Sequence record: NC_054909.1
Direction: 5' to 3' (one strand)
Source of the DNA: Escherichia phage EC121
DNA length: 64,000 nucleotides
Shown: in pieces, positions 7,644-61,847 of the stretch
How positions within the stretch are numbered: the first letter of the stretch is position 1
Layout: each line of letters starts with the position of its first letter
Notes under the pieces: generated by a model
The model's database searches: none
Seen by the model: only the letters and a program-made list of their open reading frames with translations
What the model was told of the DNA's origin: nothing
Translations under genes and position numbers: made by a program

Positions 7644-8327
7644 TTATCGTTTTGTTGGAAGAGATAGAGGATCGCACTCTTCCTCTGACGGAGCATCTTC
7701 AAGACCCATAGCATACCGCAAAGCATACTTCATCATCAGGATGTCTTTCGCACAGTCATGAATAGAATCATGCGCAACGAACCCGTCTAAAGTTCCCTTT
7801 GGAAGAGGACATGTGGTCATATCACGAACAAGCAGAAGTGCTTCAATTCTGGTGCGAATATCGCGTTGATTCCAGAATTTACAAGGTTCTAACTTAAACG
7901 TATCAAGCTCATTCTCGGAAACGCCGTTAAGACGTTGAATATCGCGAATGAGATCAACTAAAATTGGAAAATCAAACGACATTCCACGGCACCAGCCCTG
8001 AGATTTCCAAGGATCGATATTATGCGCATTGATGTAATCATTAAATTTTGCAATACCATCGATAGTGCTTACATCTTCATCTGATGGCGCAATATTTTTT
8101 CGAGCTTCAGGAGATTGATTTTTCCACCATTCGATAGTGCTTTTAGTAAAAAGACGATGTCCTTTTTGGCTTTTTAAATCAAATTTGATTTTAATGCCGC
8201 GTGAAACTAATTCATCAAATGTTTCAACTACTTCTGGATTAGGGTCAAAGGCAATAACAGCCAAATCAATAACAGCTGCCTTTTCACCGCTTCCCATTGT
8301 TTCAAAATCTATAATAAAATCAAACAT
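7644..8327 (-). CDS. dexA: exonuclease A (DEDD-type 3-prime to 5-prime exonuclease)
   Basis: 227 aa; N-terminal IIDFETMG (DxE exonuclease motif I); size and position match T4 dexA. Confidence 0.8.
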   Translation of the reverse strand: MFDFIIDFETMGSGEKAAVIDLAVIAFDPNPEVVETFDELVSRGIKIKFDLKSQKGHRLFTKSTIEWWKNQSPEARKNIAPSDEDVSTIDGIAKFNDYINAHNIDPWKSQGWCRGMSFDFPILVDLIRDIQRLNGVSENELDTFKLEPCKFWNQRDIRTRIEALLLVRDMTTCPLPKGTLDGFVAHDSIHDCAKDILMMKYALRYAMGLEDAPSEEECDPLSLPTKR

Positions 8328-8602
8328 TAAATTTTCCTCGCTAAATCGCGAATTTGACCTACAGTATAATCTTGGATATAAACTTTATTAATAGGCTCAT
8401 CAATAAATTTTGCCATAGATTCAATATCTTTTTGTATCTCTTCAAGACTGTATACTATCTTTAAAGCTTTTTCGCGAATAGTAACATTATCAGGTCCTGA
8501 ATTTTCTTGGATGACAGCTTTAACATTTGTCATAAGAGATTTAAACTGCTGCAAACTTAATTCAATCATTAATAACCGCCTTATAAAGATGGCTAATTTC
8601 AC
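8327..8602 (-). CDS. small acidic helical protein (dexA-dda intergenic family)
   Basis: 91-aa ORF (probable start at internal ATG near 8569); same architecture as its two neighbours. Confidence 0.45.
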   Translation of the reverse strand: MKLAIFIRRLLMIELSLQQFKSLMTNVKAVIQENSGPDNVTIREKALKIVYSLEEIQKDIESMAKFIDEPINKVYIQDYTVGQIRDLARKI

Positions 8603-8822
8603 CTAAAACATAATCACTGATTGTAACAGTTTTCACTTCGCCGCAAAAGAATTCTAACGCAATCAAATCTCGTTCAATTTCTTCCAATTGAAGCATTAAC
8701 TTGCCTGATTCAATTTTCACGTTTTTGCGATTTTTACTATAAGCTATTTCATAAATTTCGCTCACTTTATCTTGAAGCAGATAAAACTGGTCTTTAGTTA
8801 TTTCCACGAATAGCTTCCTCAA
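8562..8822 (-). CDS. small acidic helical protein
   Basis: 86-aa ORF in tandem array; overlaps neighbours. Confidence 0.45.
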   Translation of the reverse strand: MRKLFVEITKDQFYLLQDKVSEIYEIAYSKNRKNVKIESGKLMLQLEEIERDLIALEFFCGEVKTVTISDYVLGEISHLYKAVIND

Positions 8823-9054
8823 ATTTAATCAGCAGCTTACAGACACTTTCATCTAATGTAATTACCGTGTCTGTATTACTATGATATGATTGTTTTTCAA
8901 TTCGTTTAATTGCTAGTATAGTATCACTTATAAGATTAAGCTTATAAAGGAGCTCAGCTCCTGTTATCATAACACTGAGGTTATCTTGCTTATCAGTATG
9001 CTTCTTTATACCATCTATTAGACGATTTAAATATTTTGAATTGATGTTAATCAT
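8794..9054 (-). CDS. small hypothetical protein
   Basis: 86-aa ORF directly downstream of dda. Confidence 0.45.
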   Translation of the reverse strand: MININSKYLNRLIDGIKKHTDKQDNLSVMITGAELLYKLNLISDTILAIKRIEKQSYHSNTDTVITLDESVCKLLIKFEEAIRGNN

Positions 9055-54656: not shown

Positions 54657-55178
54657 TTATCCTTTCATTGGAGGCGTAACGGTTGTTAAATACTTAATCA
54701 TAGCTTCAGCTTCTGATTTTGATAATGAAATTTCTTCATTGTTTTGACGAATAGAAATAAAATCCGGATGACGGTCACCACCAGCTTTTAAAACACACAT
54801 ATAAGTATCAACTTCGCCTTCAATATTTGAAATGATTGAAGCAGTTCCACATGAATGCGGTTTTTGATAAATCAATACAGCTTTTCTTCCACCGTTTGAC
54901 TGTTCATAGGCTTTTAATACATCAAGCAAATCAGTTCTTTTATCAATAGCTAAAATATTATTTTCATCTTCAATGTTAAATCCTTCGGATACTTCATAAA
55001 GCGTTACCCATAAATCACCGATGTCAATAACAGCATTTACTTTTCCACGGCTTTCAAGAGTATGACAAATTTTCTTGATTTCGTCATAACTCATTTTAAT
55101 AATATCATCTCCTTGACTAAGAAAGATGTCATTTTTAAATTCAACACGAATTAAACCGCTTCCACTTGAAATAAACAT
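54657..55178 (-). CDS. hypothetical protein, tandem paralog 1
   Basis: 173 aa; C-terminus ...EAEAMIKYLTTVTPPMKG resembles that of the next ORF. Confidence 0.5.
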   Translation of the reverse strand: MFISSGSGLIRVEFKNDIFLSQGDDIIKMSYDEIKKICHTLESRGKVNAVIDIGDLWVTLYEVSEGFNIEDENNILAIDKRTDLLDVLKAYEQSNGGRKAVLIYQKPHSCGTASIISNIEGEVDTYMCVLKAGGDRHPDFISIRQNNEEISLSKSEAEAMIKYLTTVTPPMKG

Positions 55179-55184
55179 ATTTCC

Positions 55185-55739
55185 TCACTTTGAAATCATA
55201 GTTGGAATGACAGAATCAAGATAAGTCTTTAGTGCAATAGCTTCATCTTTGGTAAATGTGACAATATGTGCTCGAGAATCATCAATTTGGCGAACAAGTA
55301 CGACATCGCCATCTTCATAAGAAGTCTTGACATCCAAAGTCGTAGTATAATTTGCAGCTACTGGATTAATAATGCTAGCACCGCGATCTTTAGCCCATTG
55401 AAGTTTAGCCTTTTCGGGTGTTTCGATTGTTTCAGATTCCAAGAATTCTTTCACCTTGGTAACGAATGTTGCCCAATTGTTGATAGAAAGACACATAAAT
55501 TCAGTTTCAATATTACCGCCGTAAAGGCCACGATAAAAACGAACTTGGAGGTCGCCTGTAATATTAGTTACACCGGTAACTCCTGAGGGAGCATAAGATA
55601 AAATCGCAGCCAGTTCCATAGGAAGAATAGTAATATTATCGTCTTCCTGCGTCAGAACGTATACATTATCACGTTTTTCGATAACCAGGTCACCGAACAA
55701 ATCAGTTGTTTCAATTACAGCTTTCATATTATTTACCAA
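55185..55739 (-). CDS. hypothetical protein, tandem paralog 2
   Basis: 184 aa; C-terminus ...DEAIALKTYLDSVIPTMISK. Confidence 0.5.
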   Translation of the reverse strand: MVNNMKAVIETTDLFGDLVIEKRDNVYVLTQEDDNITILPMELAAILSYAPSGVTGVTNITGDLQVRFYRGLYGGNIETEFMCLSINNWATFVTKVKEFLESETIETPEKAKLQWAKDRGASIINPVAANYTTTLDVKTSYEDGDVVLVRQIDDSRAHIVTFTKDEAIALKTYLDSVIPTMISK

Positions 55740-55914
55740 TTAAAGTTTCAATATAAGAATCAAGATTTACTTTAGCTTCTTCCATAAGAGTTTTGTATTT
55801 AATCTTGTTAGCATGTCCGGAGAAAGCTGATTCATCAATAATTGTTGATGTATGAACAGCTCTACTATACGTCTCAATTAATTCTCTTAATTTAAAAGCC
55901 TGCTCACTTGTCAT
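55729..55914 (-). CDS. small acidic helical protein (array member)
   Basis: 61 aa; shares N-terminal (S/T)xEQxxKL..LI and C-terminal DxYIE pattern with neighbours. Confidence 0.45.
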   Translation of the reverse strand: MTSEQAFKLRELIETYSRAVHTSTIIDESAFSGHANKIKYKTLMEEAKVNLDSYIETLIGK

Positions 55915-56078
55915 TACATACTCCTTTGAATAATATCAATAATGTTGTTCACCAAATTATACGTAAACATTGGGTAATTATATTGAATCATCACATACAC
56001 AACAAACAAAACTTTCATTCTCTTCTCCTTGGCAGTTGACAAGATTACTATACCATAACCTTGCCAACTTGTAAACCA

Positions 56079-56252
56079 TTAAATGACGTTTTCGATAAAA
56101 TTCTGAAGCTTTGTATGAGCATCAACCATGATTTTCATTTCTTCCTTTGCGAAAGCTGTGCCTCTTTCACGAGAAGAACATTCATAGTCAGAAACTGCAT
56201 TAGCATATTCTTCAATTAGCTTCATTAAAAACATCTGCTTTTCAGTTTTCAT
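56079..56252 (-). CDS. small acidic helical protein (array member)
   Basis: 57-aa ORF not in the track: MKTEKQMFLMKLIEEYANAV... Confidence 0.4.
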   Translation of the reverse strand: MKTEKQMFLMKLIEEYANAVSDYECSSRERGTAFAKEEMKIMVDAHTKLQNFIENVI

Positions 56253-56436
56253 TATTCCACCTAATCATTTCAAGATATTGAACTAACTTAGCTTTGGATT
56301 TATCCAAATCCTTTTTAGCTGTTTCTATACCGTCGTATGAATATCCTTCACAATGCTCAACTGCTAATTGATATGAATCTATTTCAACATCACGTGCTAA
56401 TTTAATGATTTTTTCAAACTGTTCGTGTGTTAGCAT
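56242..56436 (-). CDS. small acidic helical protein (array member)
   Basis: 64-aa ORF. Confidence 0.45.
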   Translation of the reverse strand: MLTHEQFEKIIKLARDVEIDSYQLAVEHCEGYSYDGIETAKKDLDKSKAKLVQYLEMIRWNNEN

Positions 56437-56438
56437 AC

Positions 56439-56642
56439 TTAAACTCTCGTATTATGATCGATAATTTCATCAAGAAACATATCTAACGCTTCTAAAGCAT
56501 TATCAACTTTAGTTTCAAAGTCTTTAATGCCTTTATTCGAAATACCCGATGAATACCAAGCAAAGTCAATCAGCTCTTCATCTGCTTTACGAATTGAAGC
56601 CACTAATTCCTTGATTTTATCTGCTTGCTCTATACTAATCAT
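56439..56642 (-). CDS. small acidic helical protein (array member)
   Basis: 67 aa from internal ATG ([14 protein letters not shown]...). Confidence 0.45.
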   Translation of the reverse strand: MISIEQADKIKELVASIRKADEELIDFAWYSSGISNKGIKDFETKVDNALEALDMFLDEIIDHNTRV

Positions 56643-56830
56643 TATTCCACCACATATGACAGAGAGAATATTGCACACGCCATGTGAGTTGCAACTTCAT
56701 CACACATATTATAACGTTTCTTAAGAAGTTCTACCAGTTCTTCACTAGTAACTTCATCCATGTCGACGAAAAAATCACCATTAATGATGACGTAGATATT
56801 TCCTTCTTGATTGAGTGCTTCAATTTTCAT
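56642..56830 (-). CDS. small hypothetical protein
   Basis: 62 aa from ATG at 56830 with GAGGAG RBS; the longer track start lies inside the promoter. Confidence 0.5.
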
Positions 56831-56851: not shown

Positions 56852-56888
56852 TAGTTGTATAGTATCACAGCTCAAACGGAAAGTAAAC
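56852..56888 (-). promoter_or_regulatory. early promoter (GTTTAC, 17 nt, TACTAT) with cassette-type leader
   Basis: GTTTACTTTCCGTTTGAGCTGTGATACTATACAACTATC... immediately after a terminator hairpin. Confidence 0.55.
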
Positions 56889-56903
56889 CGGTAAAATGAA
56901 AAA

Positions 56904-56921
56904 AGTCTCCCGAAGGAGACT
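56904..56921 (-). terminator. intrinsic terminator
   Basis: GUCUCC-UUCG-GGAGAC followed by UUUUUU on the minus-strand RNA. Confidence 0.6.
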
Positions 56922-57869: not shown

Positions 57870-58451
57870 CTAACCGAGCTTTTTAGTTAATTCGTTCCAG
57901 TGTTTTCTACACAAAGAAACATAAATTTCATCACCAATACAGATTTGATTACCTTCTTTAACTGGTGTTCCATCTTCCATTAATCGAGCTGTCATAATCG
58001 CTTTTTTGCCGCAATGACAAACTGCCTTTAGTTCAATAAGTTTATCTGCAATCGCTAAAAGTTCTTTAGAACCTTCAAACAATTTTCCAGCGAAATCAGT
58101 CCTTAATCCATAAGCCATAACAGGAACATTATATGTATCAACAATTCGGCTTAATTGGTGCACCTGTTCAGTTTTTAAAAACTGAGCTTCATCTACAAAT
58201 ACGCAATGAATATCTTTTTGTGCTTCAGCCCATTTATAGAACTCGAAAATATCCATATCATCTGTAATAATATTCGCTTCCTGTTTAATTCCAATGCGAG
58301 AAACGACTTCGCAGACAGAATCGCGAGTATCAATAGCAGGCTTAAGAACTAATACACCCATTCCACGTTCTTTATAATTATGTGCAGCAGTCAAAAGAGA
58401 AGCAGATTTTCCAGCATTCATTGCTGCATAAGTAAAAATTAAACTCGCCAT
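57870..58451 (-). CDS. tk: thymidine kinase
   Basis: 193 aa; P-loop AAMNAGKS and zinc-binding cysteines near the C-terminus. Confidence 0.95.
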   Translation of the reverse strand: MASLIFTYAAMNAGKSASLLTAAHNYKERGMGVLVLKPAIDTRDSVCEVVSRIGIKQEANIITDDMDIFEFYKWAEAQKDIHCVFVDEAQFLKTEQVHQLSRIVDTYNVPVMAYGLRTDFAGKLFEGSKELLAIADKLIELKAVCHCGKKAIMTARLMEDGTPVKEGNQICIGDEIYVSLCRKHWNELTKKLG

Positions 58452-58452
58452 C

Positions 58453-58641
58453 TTAGTCCTTAGTTAAATTTTCTAAATATGTTTCTAAATCATTTTCAGC
58501 TTTATCGATAGATTTTACTAATTCGTAATATGTTTCGGCATCTCCATATTCAGAAGATATTTCAAAAGACAAATCCTTTTCTAAACTAACAATTTCACTA
58601 ACTAAAAATAATATTTCGTTCTTTTGTTCGCGAGTAATCAT
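58453..58641 (-). CDS. small acidic helical protein (tk.1 position)
   Basis: 62-aa ORF; same family pattern as the 55.7-56.7 kb array. Confidence 0.5.
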   Translation of the reverse strand: MITREQKNEILFLVSEIVSLEKDLSFEISSEYGDAETYYELVKSIDKAENDLETYLENLTKD

Positions 58642-58823
58642 AATGAATTTATATAATCAATGAGTTCTTGTTCTTTATTATCGAATTCTTTAGAAAGTTC
58701 TTCGTACTCGTTTGCACTAAAAGGACCGCATTCATTACAAACTTTTTCCAATTCGCTATTTTTATCCATAACTTCGTGGATAAGAGAAAAGAGTTTGTCT
58801 TTTTGTTCTTTACTCAGACTCAT
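58638..58823 (-). CDS. small acidic helical protein (tk.2 position)
   Basis: 61-aa ORF, ATGA-coupled. Confidence 0.5.
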   Translation of the reverse strand: MSLSKEQKDKLFSLIHEVMDKNSELEKVCNECGPFSANEYEELSKEFDNKEQELIDYINSL

Positions 58824-58993
58824 ATATTAAATCCTAGAAGTTTTAAGATAATTCGCTTTTGCTTAAATATTTCCATCGTTAAATGATCAGTATCTTTTTG
58901 ACCAATTCCAATAGCAAAACCCTTATTTACGGCAAGTTCAATTAAATTATCAATATTGCGTAAAACTTCATAGCGTAACTCAAAATTATTCAT
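58820..58993 (-). CDS. small hypothetical protein (tk.3 position)
   Basis: 57-aa ORF not in the track; ATGA overlaps on both sides. Confidence 0.4.
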   Translation of the reverse strand: MNNFELRYEVLRNIDNLIELAVNKGFAIGIGQKDTDHLTMEIFKQKRIILKLLGFNI

Positions 58994-59217
58994 TTTGGTT
59001 CACCTTCTTTAACGAAATCCGGATAAGGATTAAATCCAGAATAAAATCCTTCACCTTTATGATTGCTACAACCCTTGTTCGAGCAATAGCACCAATAATC
59101 GAAATCACAAGCCATTTCATCGTTGCATAAAGCAAAAACAACCGGCCACTTACACTTTTCACAGTGGGCATTTTTAAGAATACTAGTTTGGCTCATAACC
59201 ATGTAACCTTTAAGCAA
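58990..59217 (-). CDS. Cys-rich small protein (tk.4 position)
   Basis: 75-aa ORF with about 9 Cys (HCEKCKWP...CNDEMACDFDYWCYCSNKGCSNH), likely metal-binding. Confidence 0.5.
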   Translation of the reverse strand: MLKGYMVMSQTSILKNAHCEKCKWPVVFALCNDEMACDFDYWCYCSNKGCSNHKGEGFYSGFNPYPDFVKEGEPK

Positions 59218-61266: not shown

Positions 61267-61587
61267 TTATTCTTTAAATCTAATCAATTTATTCATAGAC
61301 TTTGAAACTTCTTCACGAACCTCATGTAGATTTTTAAGCTGTTCAAGACGCTGCTCATAGTAAGCAATTTCATCTTCTTCGAGACAGTCCTGTGAATCTT
61401 CTTTAAGATAACGTGCGTAGTCCTGGAAAGCTTTACGGACTACTTCTTGGAAGTCATCAAGACTTTGAATTTTCTTAGGAGCAACAGATACACGACGAGG
61501 GGCAGTATAATACTCGTAACCAAACCCTGCGCTTAATTGAGCCATTAATATTTTTCCTCTGGTTGGAACACTGCGCGACAAGCCCAC
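61267..61587 (-). CDS. hypothetical helical protein
   Basis: 106-aa ORF. Confidence 0.5.
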
Positions 61588-61847
61588 ATACTAGCTTCTT
61601 TGAGTTTCGTTTTAGCAATAGTTAACTGATCGAGGCTTTCAGCATAATTCTTCGCGAGTTCATCATCTTCACAGCTATCGAATGCTTCCCAGAATTCATC
61701 GTATAAAGCATCAAAGATAAGTCCTAAACGAACTTCAGCGTCTTTGATAGCATTCACTTTACCGATTTTCTCTTCAGTATGCGGCTTATAACCTTTAATG
61801 TCTTCAATCATATTTGACTTCCTCACCAGTACATAAATCATATTCAA
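61545..61847 (-). CDS. small acidic protein (vs.4 position)
   Basis: 100-aa track ORF; probable start at internal ATG ([11 protein letters not shown]...), giving about 88 aa. Confidence 0.5.

What the first reader, a model, noticed from the sequence alone, without database searches (positions are those of the whole stretch)
55729..56678. Tandem array of paralogous small acidic helical proteins, with a second array at tk.1/tk.2
Four consecutive ORFs of 57 to 67 aa (55729-55914, 56079-56252, 56242-56436, 56439-56642) share an N-terminal (S/T)xEQxxKLxxLI pattern and a C-terminal DxYIE/YLE pattern. The two ORFs at 58453-58823 and the three between dexA and dda (8327-9054) have the same architecture. 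This implies repeated local duplication of a small protein of unknown function, and one member is missing from the ORF track.
Basis: seen in the sequence. Interest (0 to 1): 0.35.

Follow-up and report, generated by a model that had tools for sequence, protein, structure and literature searches.

The report
Duplicated hairpin-protein genes in T4-type phage
Six small early genes of a T4-type phage, in two clusters beside the thymidine kinase gene, are true duplicates encoding ~60-residue two-helix hairpins of unknown function; the family is already catalogued (Pfam DUF7438), and the three dexA-dda genes belong to a different family.

Summary
The window is a Tequatrovirus (T4-like) genome segment. 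The four ORFs at 55729-56642 and the two at 58453-58823 (all on the minus strand) are real paralogues. All six match Pfam DUF7438 at 56-69 bits (cutoff 25). Each still scores 20-49 bits against a profile built without its own subfamily, against at most 14.7 bits for 2000 shuffles. They correspond to T4 MobD.2a, MobD.3, MobD.4, Tk.1 and Tk.2, plus one gene T4 lacks. AlphaFold gives an antiparallel helical hairpin (pLDDT 86) with no significant solved relative. In T4 the genes have early transcripts. MobD.3, MobD.4, Tk.1 and Tk.2 proteins are detected. Knock-down gave no fitness effect in the guides I saw, and nrdC.11-mobD.3 is deletable. Where substitution counts allow (four of six genes) pN/pS is 0.08-0.31. 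Copy number within 5 kb of tk ranges from 0 to 5 in 40 related contigs, against six here. The three dexA-dda ORFs are paralogous to each other but form a separate family with a beta-alpha-alpha-beta-alpha fold. Function is unknown. My best inference is that these are accessory binders of host proteins. This is a genuine but already catalogued family, of low to moderate interest.

The parts
55729..55914 (-). DUF7438 member A, 61 aa. It has no counterpart in T4 and sits between mobD.2 and mobD.1.
   Evidence: Pfam PF24219 at 56.9 bits. Leave-out profile 31 bits vs 9.7 for shuffles. Modelled as a helical hairpin, pLDDT 86. Present at >=80% identity in 190 phage records and absent from T4.
56079..56252 (-). 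DUF7438 member B, 57 aa. This is the intact form of T4 mobD.2a.
   Evidence: PF24219 at 56.5 bits. Leave-out profile 20 bits vs 12. T4 carries a 1-nt deletion that truncates it to 38 aa. pN/pS 0.08.
56242..56436 (-). DUF7438 member C, 64 aa, equivalent to MobD.3. It overlaps B by 11 nt.
   Evidence: PF24219 at 61.3 bits. Leave-out profile 40 bits. The T4 orthologue has early RNA and early protein. pN/pS 0.26.
56439..56642 (-). DUF7438 member D, 67 aa, equivalent to MobD.4. Its start overlaps the mobD.5 stop (TAATG).
   Evidence: PF24219 at 58.9 bits. Leave-out profile 49 bits. Loop length varies from 60 to 70 aa among orthologues. pN/pS 0.18.
58453..58641 (-). DUF7438 member E, 62 aa, equivalent to Tk.1. 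It lies immediately upstream of tk.
   Evidence: PF24219 at 56.7 bits. Leave-out profile 46.5 bits. The T4 orthologue has early RNA and middle protein.
58638..58823 (-). DUF7438 member F, 61 aa, equivalent to Tk.2. It overlaps E by 4 nt.
   Evidence: PF24219 at 68.6 bits. Leave-out profile 38 bits. There are two allele classes in public phages: 167 records at >=80% identity and 571 below 60%.
56859..56921 (-). PeSL-like element that heads the mobD.5-to-mobD.1 transcription unit. It comprises a terminator stem-loop (56921-56904) followed by an early promoter: TTTACT at 56887-56882, a 17-nt spacer, and TACTAT at 56864-56859.
   Evidence: Terminator scan and sequence. It matches the PST/T4 PeSL promoter consensus TTTACW-N17-TAYWAT (PMC4122927). 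A mobD.5 early promoter is used experimentally in T4 (PMC1702504).
56047..56075 (-). Second early-promoter-like site (TTTACA-N17-TATAGT with an upstream TG), in the gap between member B and mobD.2.
   Evidence: Best promoter-like match in the region, 10 of 12; sequence. This is a consensus match only.
56236..56261 (.). Junction repeat copy 1, covering the RBS, ATG and first codons of member B. Copy 2 is at 56626-56651 in front of member D.
   Evidence: the repeat finder family D2: 26 nt, 77% identity, spacing 390 nt. The shared GGTGGAATAATGA is visible.
56642..56830 (-). mobD.5, 62 aa. It is the first gene of the transcription unit and is not a family member.
   Evidence: No DUF7438 hit. hhalign probability 0.1%.
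55914..56018 (-). mobD.2, 34 aa and hydrophobic. It is interspersed in the array and is not a family member.
   Evidence: Annotated in G4507 and T4. No Pfam hit in the local copy.
8327..8569 (-). DexA.1, 80 aa. It belongs to a separate paralogous family, not DUF7438.
   Evidence: PHROG 1700/5263. Near-identical proteins carry PF26837. jackhmmer links it to the next two ORFs.
8562..8822 (-). DexA.2, 86 aa from the TTG start or 81 aa from the ATG. Same separate family.
   Evidence: PHROG 1700/5263. AlphaFold pLDDT 93 with a beta-alpha-alpha-beta-alpha fold. hhalign against DUF7438 gives 3-9% probability.
8794..9054 (-). Third, divergent member of the DexA.1/DexA.2 family, 86 aa. It is absent from T4.
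   Evidence: jackhmmer from DexA.2 gives 5.4e-18 over the full length. PHROG 4967/5263. T4 has no gene between dexA.2 and dda.

Best explanation
Shown. The window carries six paralogous copies of one small gene family, Pfam DUF7438 (PHROGs 653, 2758 and 4859), in two tightly packed, translationally coupled clusters. These sit in the plastic accessory region around tk and rI of a T4-type phage. The order on the transcript is tk.2-tk.1-tk, then mobD.5-mobD.4-mobD.3-mobD.2a-mobD.2-[extra copy]-mobD.1.

Each product is predicted to be a ~60-residue antiparallel two-helix hairpin. The family-wide conserved residues are almost all structural: an N-terminal T/S-x-E-Q helix cap, heptad a/d hydrophobic positions, two central alanines, a Gly that ends helix 1, a Ser/Thr that caps helix 2, and the C-terminal L-x-x-(Y/F)-(L/I)-x-x-(L/I). 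In T4 the genes are transcribed early, four of the proteins are detected, and the genes are dispensable in laboratory E. coli. The ones with enough substitutions are under purifying selection.

The array grows, shrinks and swaps alleles by duplication and recombination between copies and at promoter/stem-loop (PeSL) junctions.

Inferred, not shown. The hairpins probably pair into four-helix bundles. They probably act stoichiometrically as small binders of host proteins, serving host take-over or counter-defence. The conserved termini-proximal half would be the scaffold and the more variable loop-proximal half and surface would set each paralogue's target. That would make them conditionally useful on some hosts rather than essential.
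For: Paralogy.
Fold: AlphaFold hairpin with helices 3-28 and 34-60, pLDDT 86. Heptad pattern and capping residues are seen across 39 family members.
Expression in T4: MobD.3 and MobD.4 have early RNA and early protein; Tk.1 and Tk.2 have early RNA and middle protein (PMC9697503 supplements). A mobD.5 early promoter is documented (PMC1702504). The window has a terminator plus early-promoter element and Shine-Dalgarno sequences with overlapping starts and stops.
Dispensability: nrdC.11-mobD.3 is deletable (PMC9825161). The CRISPRi-ART guides shown for mobD.2a, mobD.3, mobD.4, tk.1 and tk.2 are all 'Not Fit' (PMC11879866 supplement).
Real genes: pN/pS is 0.08-0.31 for B, C, D and F.
Plasticity: 0-5 copies within 5 kb of tk in 40 T4-like contigs, against six in the window. 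Gene A is in 190 records, whereas 659 match the region. The tk.2 slot is dimorphic. There are tk.2::tk.1 chimeras, a junction repeat and a PeSL match.
Variable tip: orthologue groups D and F show more residue types per column, and higher pN/pS at the tip than at the base (0.33 vs 0.12; 0.53 vs 0.25).
Context: Acb2 (PF24729), a Macro-domain protein and RegB lie within 3 kb upstream. Characterised T4 ORFans from such regions (55.1, 55.2, 39.2) act by binding host proteins (PMC4396842).
Against: There is no direct evidence for any binding partner, oligomeric state or phenotype.
The hairpin fold is generic. Foldseek finds nothing below E 0.4 in PDB or 0.01 in BFVD, and the BFVD matches are all uncharacterised phage proteins.
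Tip pN/pS stays below 1, so the data show relaxed constraint there, not diversifying selection. The allele samples were small (4-7 alleles per gene).
Genes A and E had too few synonymous changes to judge selection.
Knock-down gives no fitness effect, which is also what a functionless gene would show.
No match to any PADLOC defence model or known anti-defence family.
No paper on these genes was found in the searchable library.
Confidence: 0.45

Rival explanations
1. The hairpins serve the phage's own nucleotide metabolism. They would be small accessory or regulatory subunits for P-loop kinases such as thymidine kinase, which would explain why a copy sits directly upstream of tk and is translationally coupled to it.
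For: In many of the 40 T4-like contigs a copy ends within a few bases of the tk start. In the window the tk.1 stop lies 1 nt before the tk start. A distant family member (P0139) lies directly upstream of, and abuts, a 385-aa AAA_33/polynucleotide-kinase-like gene in an unrelated contig.
Against: 15 of 40 contigs have tk but no DUF7438 copy within 5 kb. Four of the six window copies sit 1.2-2.7 kb away, behind a terminator and in another transcription unit. Adjacency in densely packed phage genomes is weak evidence.
Confidence: 0.1
2. They are Rop-like dimeric four-helix bundles that bind RNA or DNA and tune early phage gene expression.
For: Rop and its mutants are among the best structural matches (TM 0.85, rmsd 1.0-1.3 A over 57 residues). 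Length, the hairpin and the central small residues resemble Rop.
Against: Foldseek E is about 1 and identity 16%, so this is no more than a generic hairpin match. All six proteins are net acidic (pI 4.2-6.1) with acid-rich surface columns, which suits nucleic-acid binding poorly. There is no sequence match to any solved protein.
Confidence: 0.07
3. They have no function of their own. They would be leftovers of duplication, or recently born ORFs, that persist by hitch-hiking in a recombination-prone region.
For: Knock-down has no fitness effect, and nrdC.11-mobD.3 (which includes three of the T4 members) is deletable. Copies are frequently lost, truncated or fused; examples are the T4 mobD.2a frameshift, the chimeras, and 15 of 40 contigs with no copy near tk.
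Against: pN/pS is 0.08-0.31 in four genes. Four T4 proteins are detected by proteomics. A coherent structural signature is kept across members only 16-32% identical and across several T4-like genera.
Confidence: 0.1
4. One reading: all nine ORFs, including the dexA-dda trio, are one family with one architecture.
For: There is a shared N-terminal (I/L)T-x-(E/D)Q-x-x-x-L motif of about 15 residues (hhalign P 0.004). One pairwise hit links the third dexA-dda ORF to MobD.3 (blastp 2e-4, z about 5-6). Both folds contain a helical hairpin.
Against: The trio gives no DUF7438 HMM hit even at E 10. hhalign probability is 3-9%, against 0.1-1.8% for unrelated control families. The Pfam families differ, PF26837 vs PF24219. 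The trio's fold has two extra strands and a third helix and is 20-25 residues longer. The single pairwise hit weakens once the 66 pairs compared are taken into account.
Confidence: 0.05

Closest known systems
Pfam DUF7438 (PF24219); PHROGs 653, 2758 and 4859. In T4 these are MobD.2a, MobD.3, MobD.4, Tk.1 and Tk.2.
   Same: All six window ORFs are full-length members at 56-69 bits. They match named T4-type phage proteins at up to 100% identity, and published T4 annotation tables already place MobD.3, MobD.4, Tk.1 and Tk.2 in one PHROG.
   Different: Nothing differs in kind. This phage has six intact copies where T4 has four intact and one frameshifted copy. No function is attached to the family.
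DexA.1/DexA.2 family (Pfam PF26837; PHROGs 1700 and 5263)
   Same: It is a second tandem set of small early paralogues of unknown function in the same genome. In T4 they are expressed (early RNA, middle protein) and the dexA.1 guides shown were 'Not Fit'.
   Different: It is 80-86 aa with a beta-alpha-alpha-beta-alpha fold. No significant sequence or profile similarity to DUF7438 was found.
Rop (ColE1 repressor of primer)
   Same: A hairpin of about 60 residues with heptad packing and small central residues. It is among the best structural superpositions (TM 0.85).
   Different: No detectable homology (E about 1, 16% identity). Rop binds RNA through helix-1 residues, whereas these proteins are acidic. 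Dimerisation is not tested here.
Small phage hairpin or helical inhibitors of host proteins, for example Aqs1 of Pseudomonas phage DMS3, AcrIIC4, and the T4 ORFan products 55.1, 55.2 and 39.2
   Same: Small, early, non-essential phage proteins encoded in plastic regions. Aqs1 and AcrIIC4 appear among weak structural matches. T4 ORFans from such regions act by binding host proteins (PMC4396842).
   Different: The structural matches are insignificant (E 1.7-2.4). There is no sequence relationship, and no target or phenotype is known for DUF7438.
Acb2/Tad1 hairpin domain (PF24729; T4 Vs.4), encoded 2.7 kb upstream in the window
   Same: A small helical early protein in the same accessory region, and a known counter-defence family by its Pfam name.
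   Different: Profile-profile probability is 0.5%, so it is not related.

Membership tests
Pfam DUF7438 (PF24219) | Full-length match to the family HMM above the gathering score (25 bits) | tested here: met
   Six ORFs score 56.5-68.6 bits and cover profile positions 1-57.
Pfam DUF7438 (PF24219) | Similarity is independent of self-inclusion and of composition | tested here: met
   A profile lacking every sequence >=35% identical to the query still gives 20-49 bits. The best of 2000 shuffles gives 9.7-14.7 bits.
Pfam DUF7438 (PF24219) | Single-domain protein of about 57-67 aa forming a two-helix hairpin | tested here: met
   Lengths are 57-67 aa. AlphaFold gives helices 3-28 and 34-60 at pLDDT 86. 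Most of the 42 library representatives I read are 57-67 aa.
Pfam DUF7438 (PF24219), applied to the dexA-dda trio 8327-9054 | Match to the family HMM or profile | tested here: not met
   No hit at E<=1 in Pfam and none at E<=10 with my family HMM. hhalign probability 3-9%.
DexA.1/DexA.2 family (PF26837) | Sequence membership of the three dexA-dda ORFs | tested here: inconclusive
   Near-identical proteins of DexA.1 and DexA.2 carry PF26837 in precomputed annotation, but the local Pfam copy gave no hit. The third ORF's relatives carry no Pfam (P0234), yet jackhmmer from DexA.2 reaches it at 5.4e-18.
Rop family | Detectable sequence homology to Rop | tested here: not met
   No PDB sequence hit below E 0.07, and Rop is not listed. 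Foldseek E is about 1 at 16% identity.
Rop family | Homodimeric antiparallel four-helix bundle | not testable with these tools
   Only monomer prediction was available. The heptad pattern is compatible with it.
Rop family | Nucleic-acid-binding surface | tested here: not met
   pI is 4.2-6.1 and many surface columns are acidic.
Acb2/Tad1 hairpin (PF24729) | Profile similarity to the Acb2 family | tested here: not met
   hhalign probability 0.5% against a 28-sequence Acb2 alignment.
Known anti-phage defence proteins (PADLOC) | Match to any defence-system model | tested here: not met
   Only noise hits, E 0.005-0.01 and 12-14 bits.
PeSL (early promoter plus stem-loop shuffling element of T4-like phages) | Stem-loop adjacent to an early promoter matching TTTACW-N17-TAYWAT, located in a hyperplastic region | tested here: met
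   Stem-loop at 56921-56904, then TTTACT-N17-TACTAT at 56887-56859. The consensus comes from PMC4122927. A role in recombination was not tested.

The most novel reading that the evidence does not exclude
DUF7438 could be a phage-encoded set of interchangeable 'mini-binders'. It would have one conserved coiled-coil hairpin scaffold, with a loop-proximal half that diversifies by duplication, allele replacement and recombination between copies. Each paralogue, or each hetero-dimer of co-expressed paralogues, would then neutralise a different host or defence protein. Copy number and allele set would help determine which strains a T4-type phage can infect.
Probability: 0.15. Interest if true: 0.6.

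Novelty: already known. Interest (0 to 1): 0.25.

Why it matters
T4 is the best-studied large lytic phage, yet more than 100 of its small early genes have no known function. A family with up to six copies in one genome, expressed early, under purifying selection where measurable, and highly variable in copy number between close relatives, is a reasonable place to look for host-range or counter-defence factors. As it stands, this finding adds no new family.

Tried and rejected
1. Composition or chance as the cause of the similarity. Rejected by the shuffle and leave-out tests.
2. One family of nine ORFs. Rejected. Unrelated neighbouring families served as negative controls.
3. The C-terminal blastp hit between ORF 8794-9054 and MobD.3 (E 2e-4). 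The family HMM does not back it, so I treat it as chance or at most a very distant trace.
4. Kinship with rI.1, which has a look-alike LTEKQ...YLDKV pattern, and with MobD.5, the Tk.3-like ORF, Vs.3 or Acb2. hhalign probabilities are 0.1-1.8%. In one search I first took the wrong ORF (61267-61545) for Acb2; I corrected this after the Pfam scan.
5. Solved-structure relatives by sequence: none below E 0.07. By fold: only generic hairpins. The DexA.2 model also has no PDB match.
6. Defence-system models: none.
7. The search for related loci with the family alignment failed because no stretch was conserved enough. I used tk and dexA as anchors instead.
8. Literature. Searches for the gene names, DUF7438/PF24219, T4 locus tags and UniProt accessions found no functional study. 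The Miller 2003 T4 genome review is not held.
9. Diversifying selection at the hairpin tip. pN/pS is higher there than at the base but still below 1, so the data show relaxed constraint only.
10. Nucleotide-level repeats between paralogues. None were found beyond the 26-nt junction repeat, so the duplications are old.
Full report
**Identity of the window**

The 55.0-59.5 kb stretch is 96-98% identical to many Tequatrovirus genomes such as ECP52, vB_EcoM_G4507 and RB18. Gene order matches T4. On the minus strand it runs tk.4 (Macro), tk.3, tk.2, tk.1, tk, rI.1, rI, rI.-1, then mobD.5, mobD.4, mobD.3, mobD.2a, mobD.2 and mobD.1.

**The observation**

The four ORFs exist as described, all on the minus strand:
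- 55729-55914, 61 aa
- 56079-56252, 57 aa
- 56242-56436, 64 aa
- 56439-56642, 67 aa

The 56678 end of the finding is an upstream in-frame GTG. The ATG at 56642 is the start annotated in RefSeq. The ORFs at 58453-58641 (Tk.1) and 58638-58823 (Tk.2) share them.

**Is it more than chance?**

Yes, by several independent tests.
- All six match one Pfam model, DUF7438 (PF24219), over its full 57 positions at 56-69 bits, against a cutoff of 25. They fall into three cross-hitting PHROGs: 653, 2758 and 4859.
- Pairwise Smith-Waterman z-scores against shuffles link all six transitively: A-B 6, A-D 7.5, C-F 7, C-E 5, E-F 9-10.
- In the strictest test I rebuilt the family profile after removing every sequence at least 35% identical to the query. 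Each member still scored 20-49 bits, while the best of 2000 composition-preserving shuffles scored 9.7-14.7 bits.
- Across all ORFs of the 64-kb window the six score 53-76 bits and the next ORF 8.6 bits. The window therefore has exactly six members.

**The dexA-dda trio is a different family**

The ORFs at 8327-8569 (DexA.1), 8562-8822 (DexA.2) and 8794-9054 (absent from T4) do not hit DUF7438. They are paralogous to one another:
- SW z of 10 for DexA.1 against DexA.2.
- jackhmmer from DexA.2 reaches the third ORF at 5.4e-18.
- All three hit PHROG 5263.
- Close relatives of DexA.1 and DexA.2 carry Pfam PF26837.

Profile-profile comparison with DUF7438 gives 3-9% probability, aligned mostly over a 15-residue N-terminal ITxEQ-like motif. 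Four unrelated neighbouring families gave 0.1-1.8% and Acb2 gave 0.5%. AlphaFold models DexA.2 at pLDDT 93 as beta-alpha-alpha-beta-alpha, not a bare hairpin, and it has no PDB relative. One pairwise hit, the third ORF against MobD.3 at E 2e-4, is not backed by the profile.

**What the proteins look like**

AlphaFold on an 18-sequence alignment gives a helical hairpin with helices 3-28 and 34-60, pLDDT 86 and pTM 0.69. Column statistics over 39 diverse members show that the conserved positions are structural:
- a T/S-x-E-Q cap at the N-terminus;
- hydrophobic residues at 3-4 spacing on both helices (positions 9, 12, 13, 16 and 23 on helix 1; 40, 44, 51, 54, 55 and 58 on helix 2);
- alanine-rich central positions 19 and 47;
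- a Gly at the end of helix 1 and a Ser/Thr/Asp at the start of helix 2.

Surface positions are variable and often acidic. pI ranges from 4.2 to 6.1. Foldseek finds only generic hairpins such as Rop, DUF683 and HR1b, with E at least 0.47 in PDB. In BFVD the best matches (E at least 0.012) are uncharacterised 54-61-aa proteins of T4-like phages of Escherichia, Yersinia, Enterobacter, Erwinia, Citrobacter, Klebsiella and Pectobacterium. A profile search of PDB sequences finds nothing below E 0.07.

**Size and range of the family**

An exhaustive profile search of 1.84 billion cluster representatives found only 42 with E at or below 0.001, most of them about 57-67 aa. Word-indexed searches returned T-even-type phage proteins and contigs of about 165-171 kb. 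One distant member lies in a 4-kb contig next to a tail-fibre fragment and directly upstream of a PNK/AAA_33-like gene. Another contig shows the T4-like layout with four copies.

**Expression and dispensability**

This evidence comes from T4 orthologues in published data. T4 multi-omics supplements classify mobD.3 and mobD.4 as early RNA and early protein. They classify tk.1 and tk.2 (and dexA.1/dexA.2) as early RNA and middle protein, and mobD.2a as early RNA with no protein call (PMC9697503). [quoted passage not shown]

In the window, a terminator stem-loop at 56921-56904 is followed by TTTACT-N17-TACTAT at 56887-56859 and then the mobD.5 RBS. This matches the PeSL consensus reported for the PST/T4 pair (PMC4122927). 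A second promoter-like site (10 of 12) lies between member B and mobD.2. Gene junctions are overlapping or nearly so (TAATG, ATGA, an 11-nt overlap), which suggests translational coupling.

A genome-reduction study recovered T4 deletions spanning nrdC.11 to mobD.3 (PMC9825161). In the CRISPRi-ART T4 screen, the guides shown for mobD.2a, mobD.3, mobD.4, tk.1, tk.2 and dexA.1 are labelled 'Not Fit' (PMC11879866 supplement).

**Selection**

Nei-Gojobori comparisons with alleles from related loci give pooled pN/pS of 0.08 (B), 0.26 (C), 0.18 (D) and 0.31 (F). A and E have too few synonymous changes to judge. I split codons into the termini-proximal 'base' and the loop-proximal 'tip'. The tip is less constrained in D (0.33 vs 0.12), F (0.53 vs 0.25) and B (0.14 vs 0), but never exceeds 1. 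Residue diversity per column within orthologue groups peaks in the same central segment, and MobD.4 also shows loop-length variants of 60-70 aa. This is relaxed constraint, not demonstrated diversifying selection. The allele samples were small (4-7 per gene).

**Copy-number and allele variation**

I used tk as an anchor in 40 IMG/VR T4-like contigs with tk identity of 47-100%. The number of DUF7438 copies within 5 kb of tk is shown below. A few loci are truncated, so some counts are lower bounds.

| Copies near tk | Contigs |
|---|---|
| 0 | 15 |
| 1 | 6 |
| 2 | 9 |
| 3 | 5 |
| 4 | 3 |
| 5 | 2 |

The window has six. T4 has four intact copies plus mobD.2a, which carries a 1-nt deletion relative to the window's intact 57-aa gene. 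T4 lacks member A. Member A occurs at 80% identity or more in 190 phage records, whereas 659 records match the region.

The tk.2 slot has two allele classes: 167 records at 80% identity or more and 571 below 60%. Contigs with 99-100% identical tk carry either tk.2 plus tk.1 or a single divergent tk.2. Two database proteins (P0007 from phage UFV-AREG1, and P0090) are in-frame tk.2::tk.1 chimeras, the expected product of recombination between tandem paralogues. A 26-nt repeat (77% identity, 390 nt apart) covers the RBS and start of members B and D. No other nucleotide similarity between copies remains, so the duplications are old.

**Mechanism**

Shown:
- a six-copy paralogous family of small hairpin proteins;
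- early transcription in T4, with four of the proteins detected;
- non-essentiality in the laboratory;
- purifying selection where measurable;
- location in a recombination-prone accessory region.

Inferred:
- A 60-residue hairpin with a single a/d hydrophobic stripe is unlikely to be stable alone, so pairing into a four-helix bundle is plausible.
- The acidic surface argues against nucleic-acid binding.
- The neighbourhood contains Acb2 (61545-61811, PF24729), a Macro-domain protein and RegB.
- The characterised T4 ORFans of such regions work by binding host proteins (PMC4396842).

I therefore favour stoichiometric binding of host proteins, for take-over or counter-defence. I hold that functional part at roughly one in three. 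Rivals are listed separately: a tk/kinase-linked role, a Rop-like nucleic-acid binder, and no function.

**Novelty and verdict**

The family is already defined in Pfam and PHROGs, and published T4 annotation tables already place MobD.3, MobD.4, Tk.1 and Tk.2 in one PHROG. The window's copies match annotated phage genes at up to 100% identity. I found no paper on their function. The finding is real and tidy but ordinary. Its main corrections are that there are two families, not one, and that the family is catalogued. Interest is 0.25.

Noticed in passing
window 55729-55914, 56439-56642 and 8562-8822; L001, L002, L003: Public records carry name-driven misannotations. The 61-aa member A (PHROG 4859) is called 'helicase loader'. 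MobD.4 is called 'molybdopterin-guanine dinucleotide biosynthesis protein MobD'. DexA.2 is called 'dextranase' and DexA.1 'exonuclease'. None of these is supported by the sequences.
   Followed up: partly
window 56079-56252 vs L002 3488-3674 (T4 58049-58165): The T4 reference mobD.2a (38 aa) is a 1-nt-deletion frameshift of the intact 57-aa gene in this window. Both halves still match the family HMM in different frames, and the T4 proteome study gives no protein call for it.
   Followed up: yes
window 54657-55178 and 55185-55727 (minus strand): Directly downstream of the array lie two tandem paralogues of MobD.1 (Pfam T4_y05I_N and T4_y05I_C; blastp 1e-8, 29% identity). The second copy sits where T4 has the mobD HNH homing endonuclease.
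   Followed up: partly
P0007 (Escherichia phage UFV-AREG1) and P0090: These are in-frame chimeras with the N-terminal half of Tk.2 and the C-terminal half of Tk.1. That is the product expected from recombination between the adjacent paralogues.
   Followed up: partly
window 56859-56921 (minus strand): A terminator stem-loop is immediately followed by an early promoter matching the published PeSL consensus for T4/PST (TTTACW-N17-TAYWAT). It sits at the boundary between rI.-1 and mobD.5.
   Followed up: partly
window 56236-56261 and 56626-56651: A 26-nt repeat (77% identity) covers the Shine-Dalgarno sequence, ATG and first codons of members B and D. In MobD.3 the same sequence is read through as its C-terminal RWNNEN tail.
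   Followed up: partly
window 8794-9054 (minus strand): An 86-aa ORF between dexA.2 and dda is absent from T4. It is a divergent third member of the DexA.1/DexA.2 family, and its close relatives carry no Pfam annotation.
   Followed up: yes
PHROG 1700 (160 positions): The profile spans DexA.2 (positions 1-80) followed by DexA.1 (positions 80-159). In some phages the two adjacent paralogues therefore seem to be annotated or fused as one protein.
   Followed up: no
window 58820-58993 and 58990-59196 (minus strand): Two small genes lie between tk.2 and tk.3 that T4 lacks: a 57-aa ORF (PHROG 3452) and a 68-aa zinc-binding protein (Pfam Phage_zn_bind).
   Followed up: no
window 61545-61811 (minus strand): An 88-aa protein matches the Acb2/Tad1 hairpin domain (PF24729, 71 bits), so it is the Vs.4/Acb2 homologue. 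It lies 2.7 kb upstream of tk.2 and is unrelated to DUF7438.
   Followed up: yes
L109 2277-3622: A distant DUF7438 member (P0139, 62 aa) abuts the start of a 385-aa AAA_33/polynucleotide-kinase-like gene in a metagenomic contig that also carries a tail-fibre fragment. This echoes the position of tk.1 in front of tk.
   Followed up: partly
window 54657-55178: The C-terminal part of this MobD.1-like protein gives a sub-threshold hit to DUF7189, the family reported for the mobD.5-position gene in locus L111 (24 bits against a cutoff of 27). This hints at a distant link between MobD.5 and the y05I C-terminal domain.
   Followed up: no
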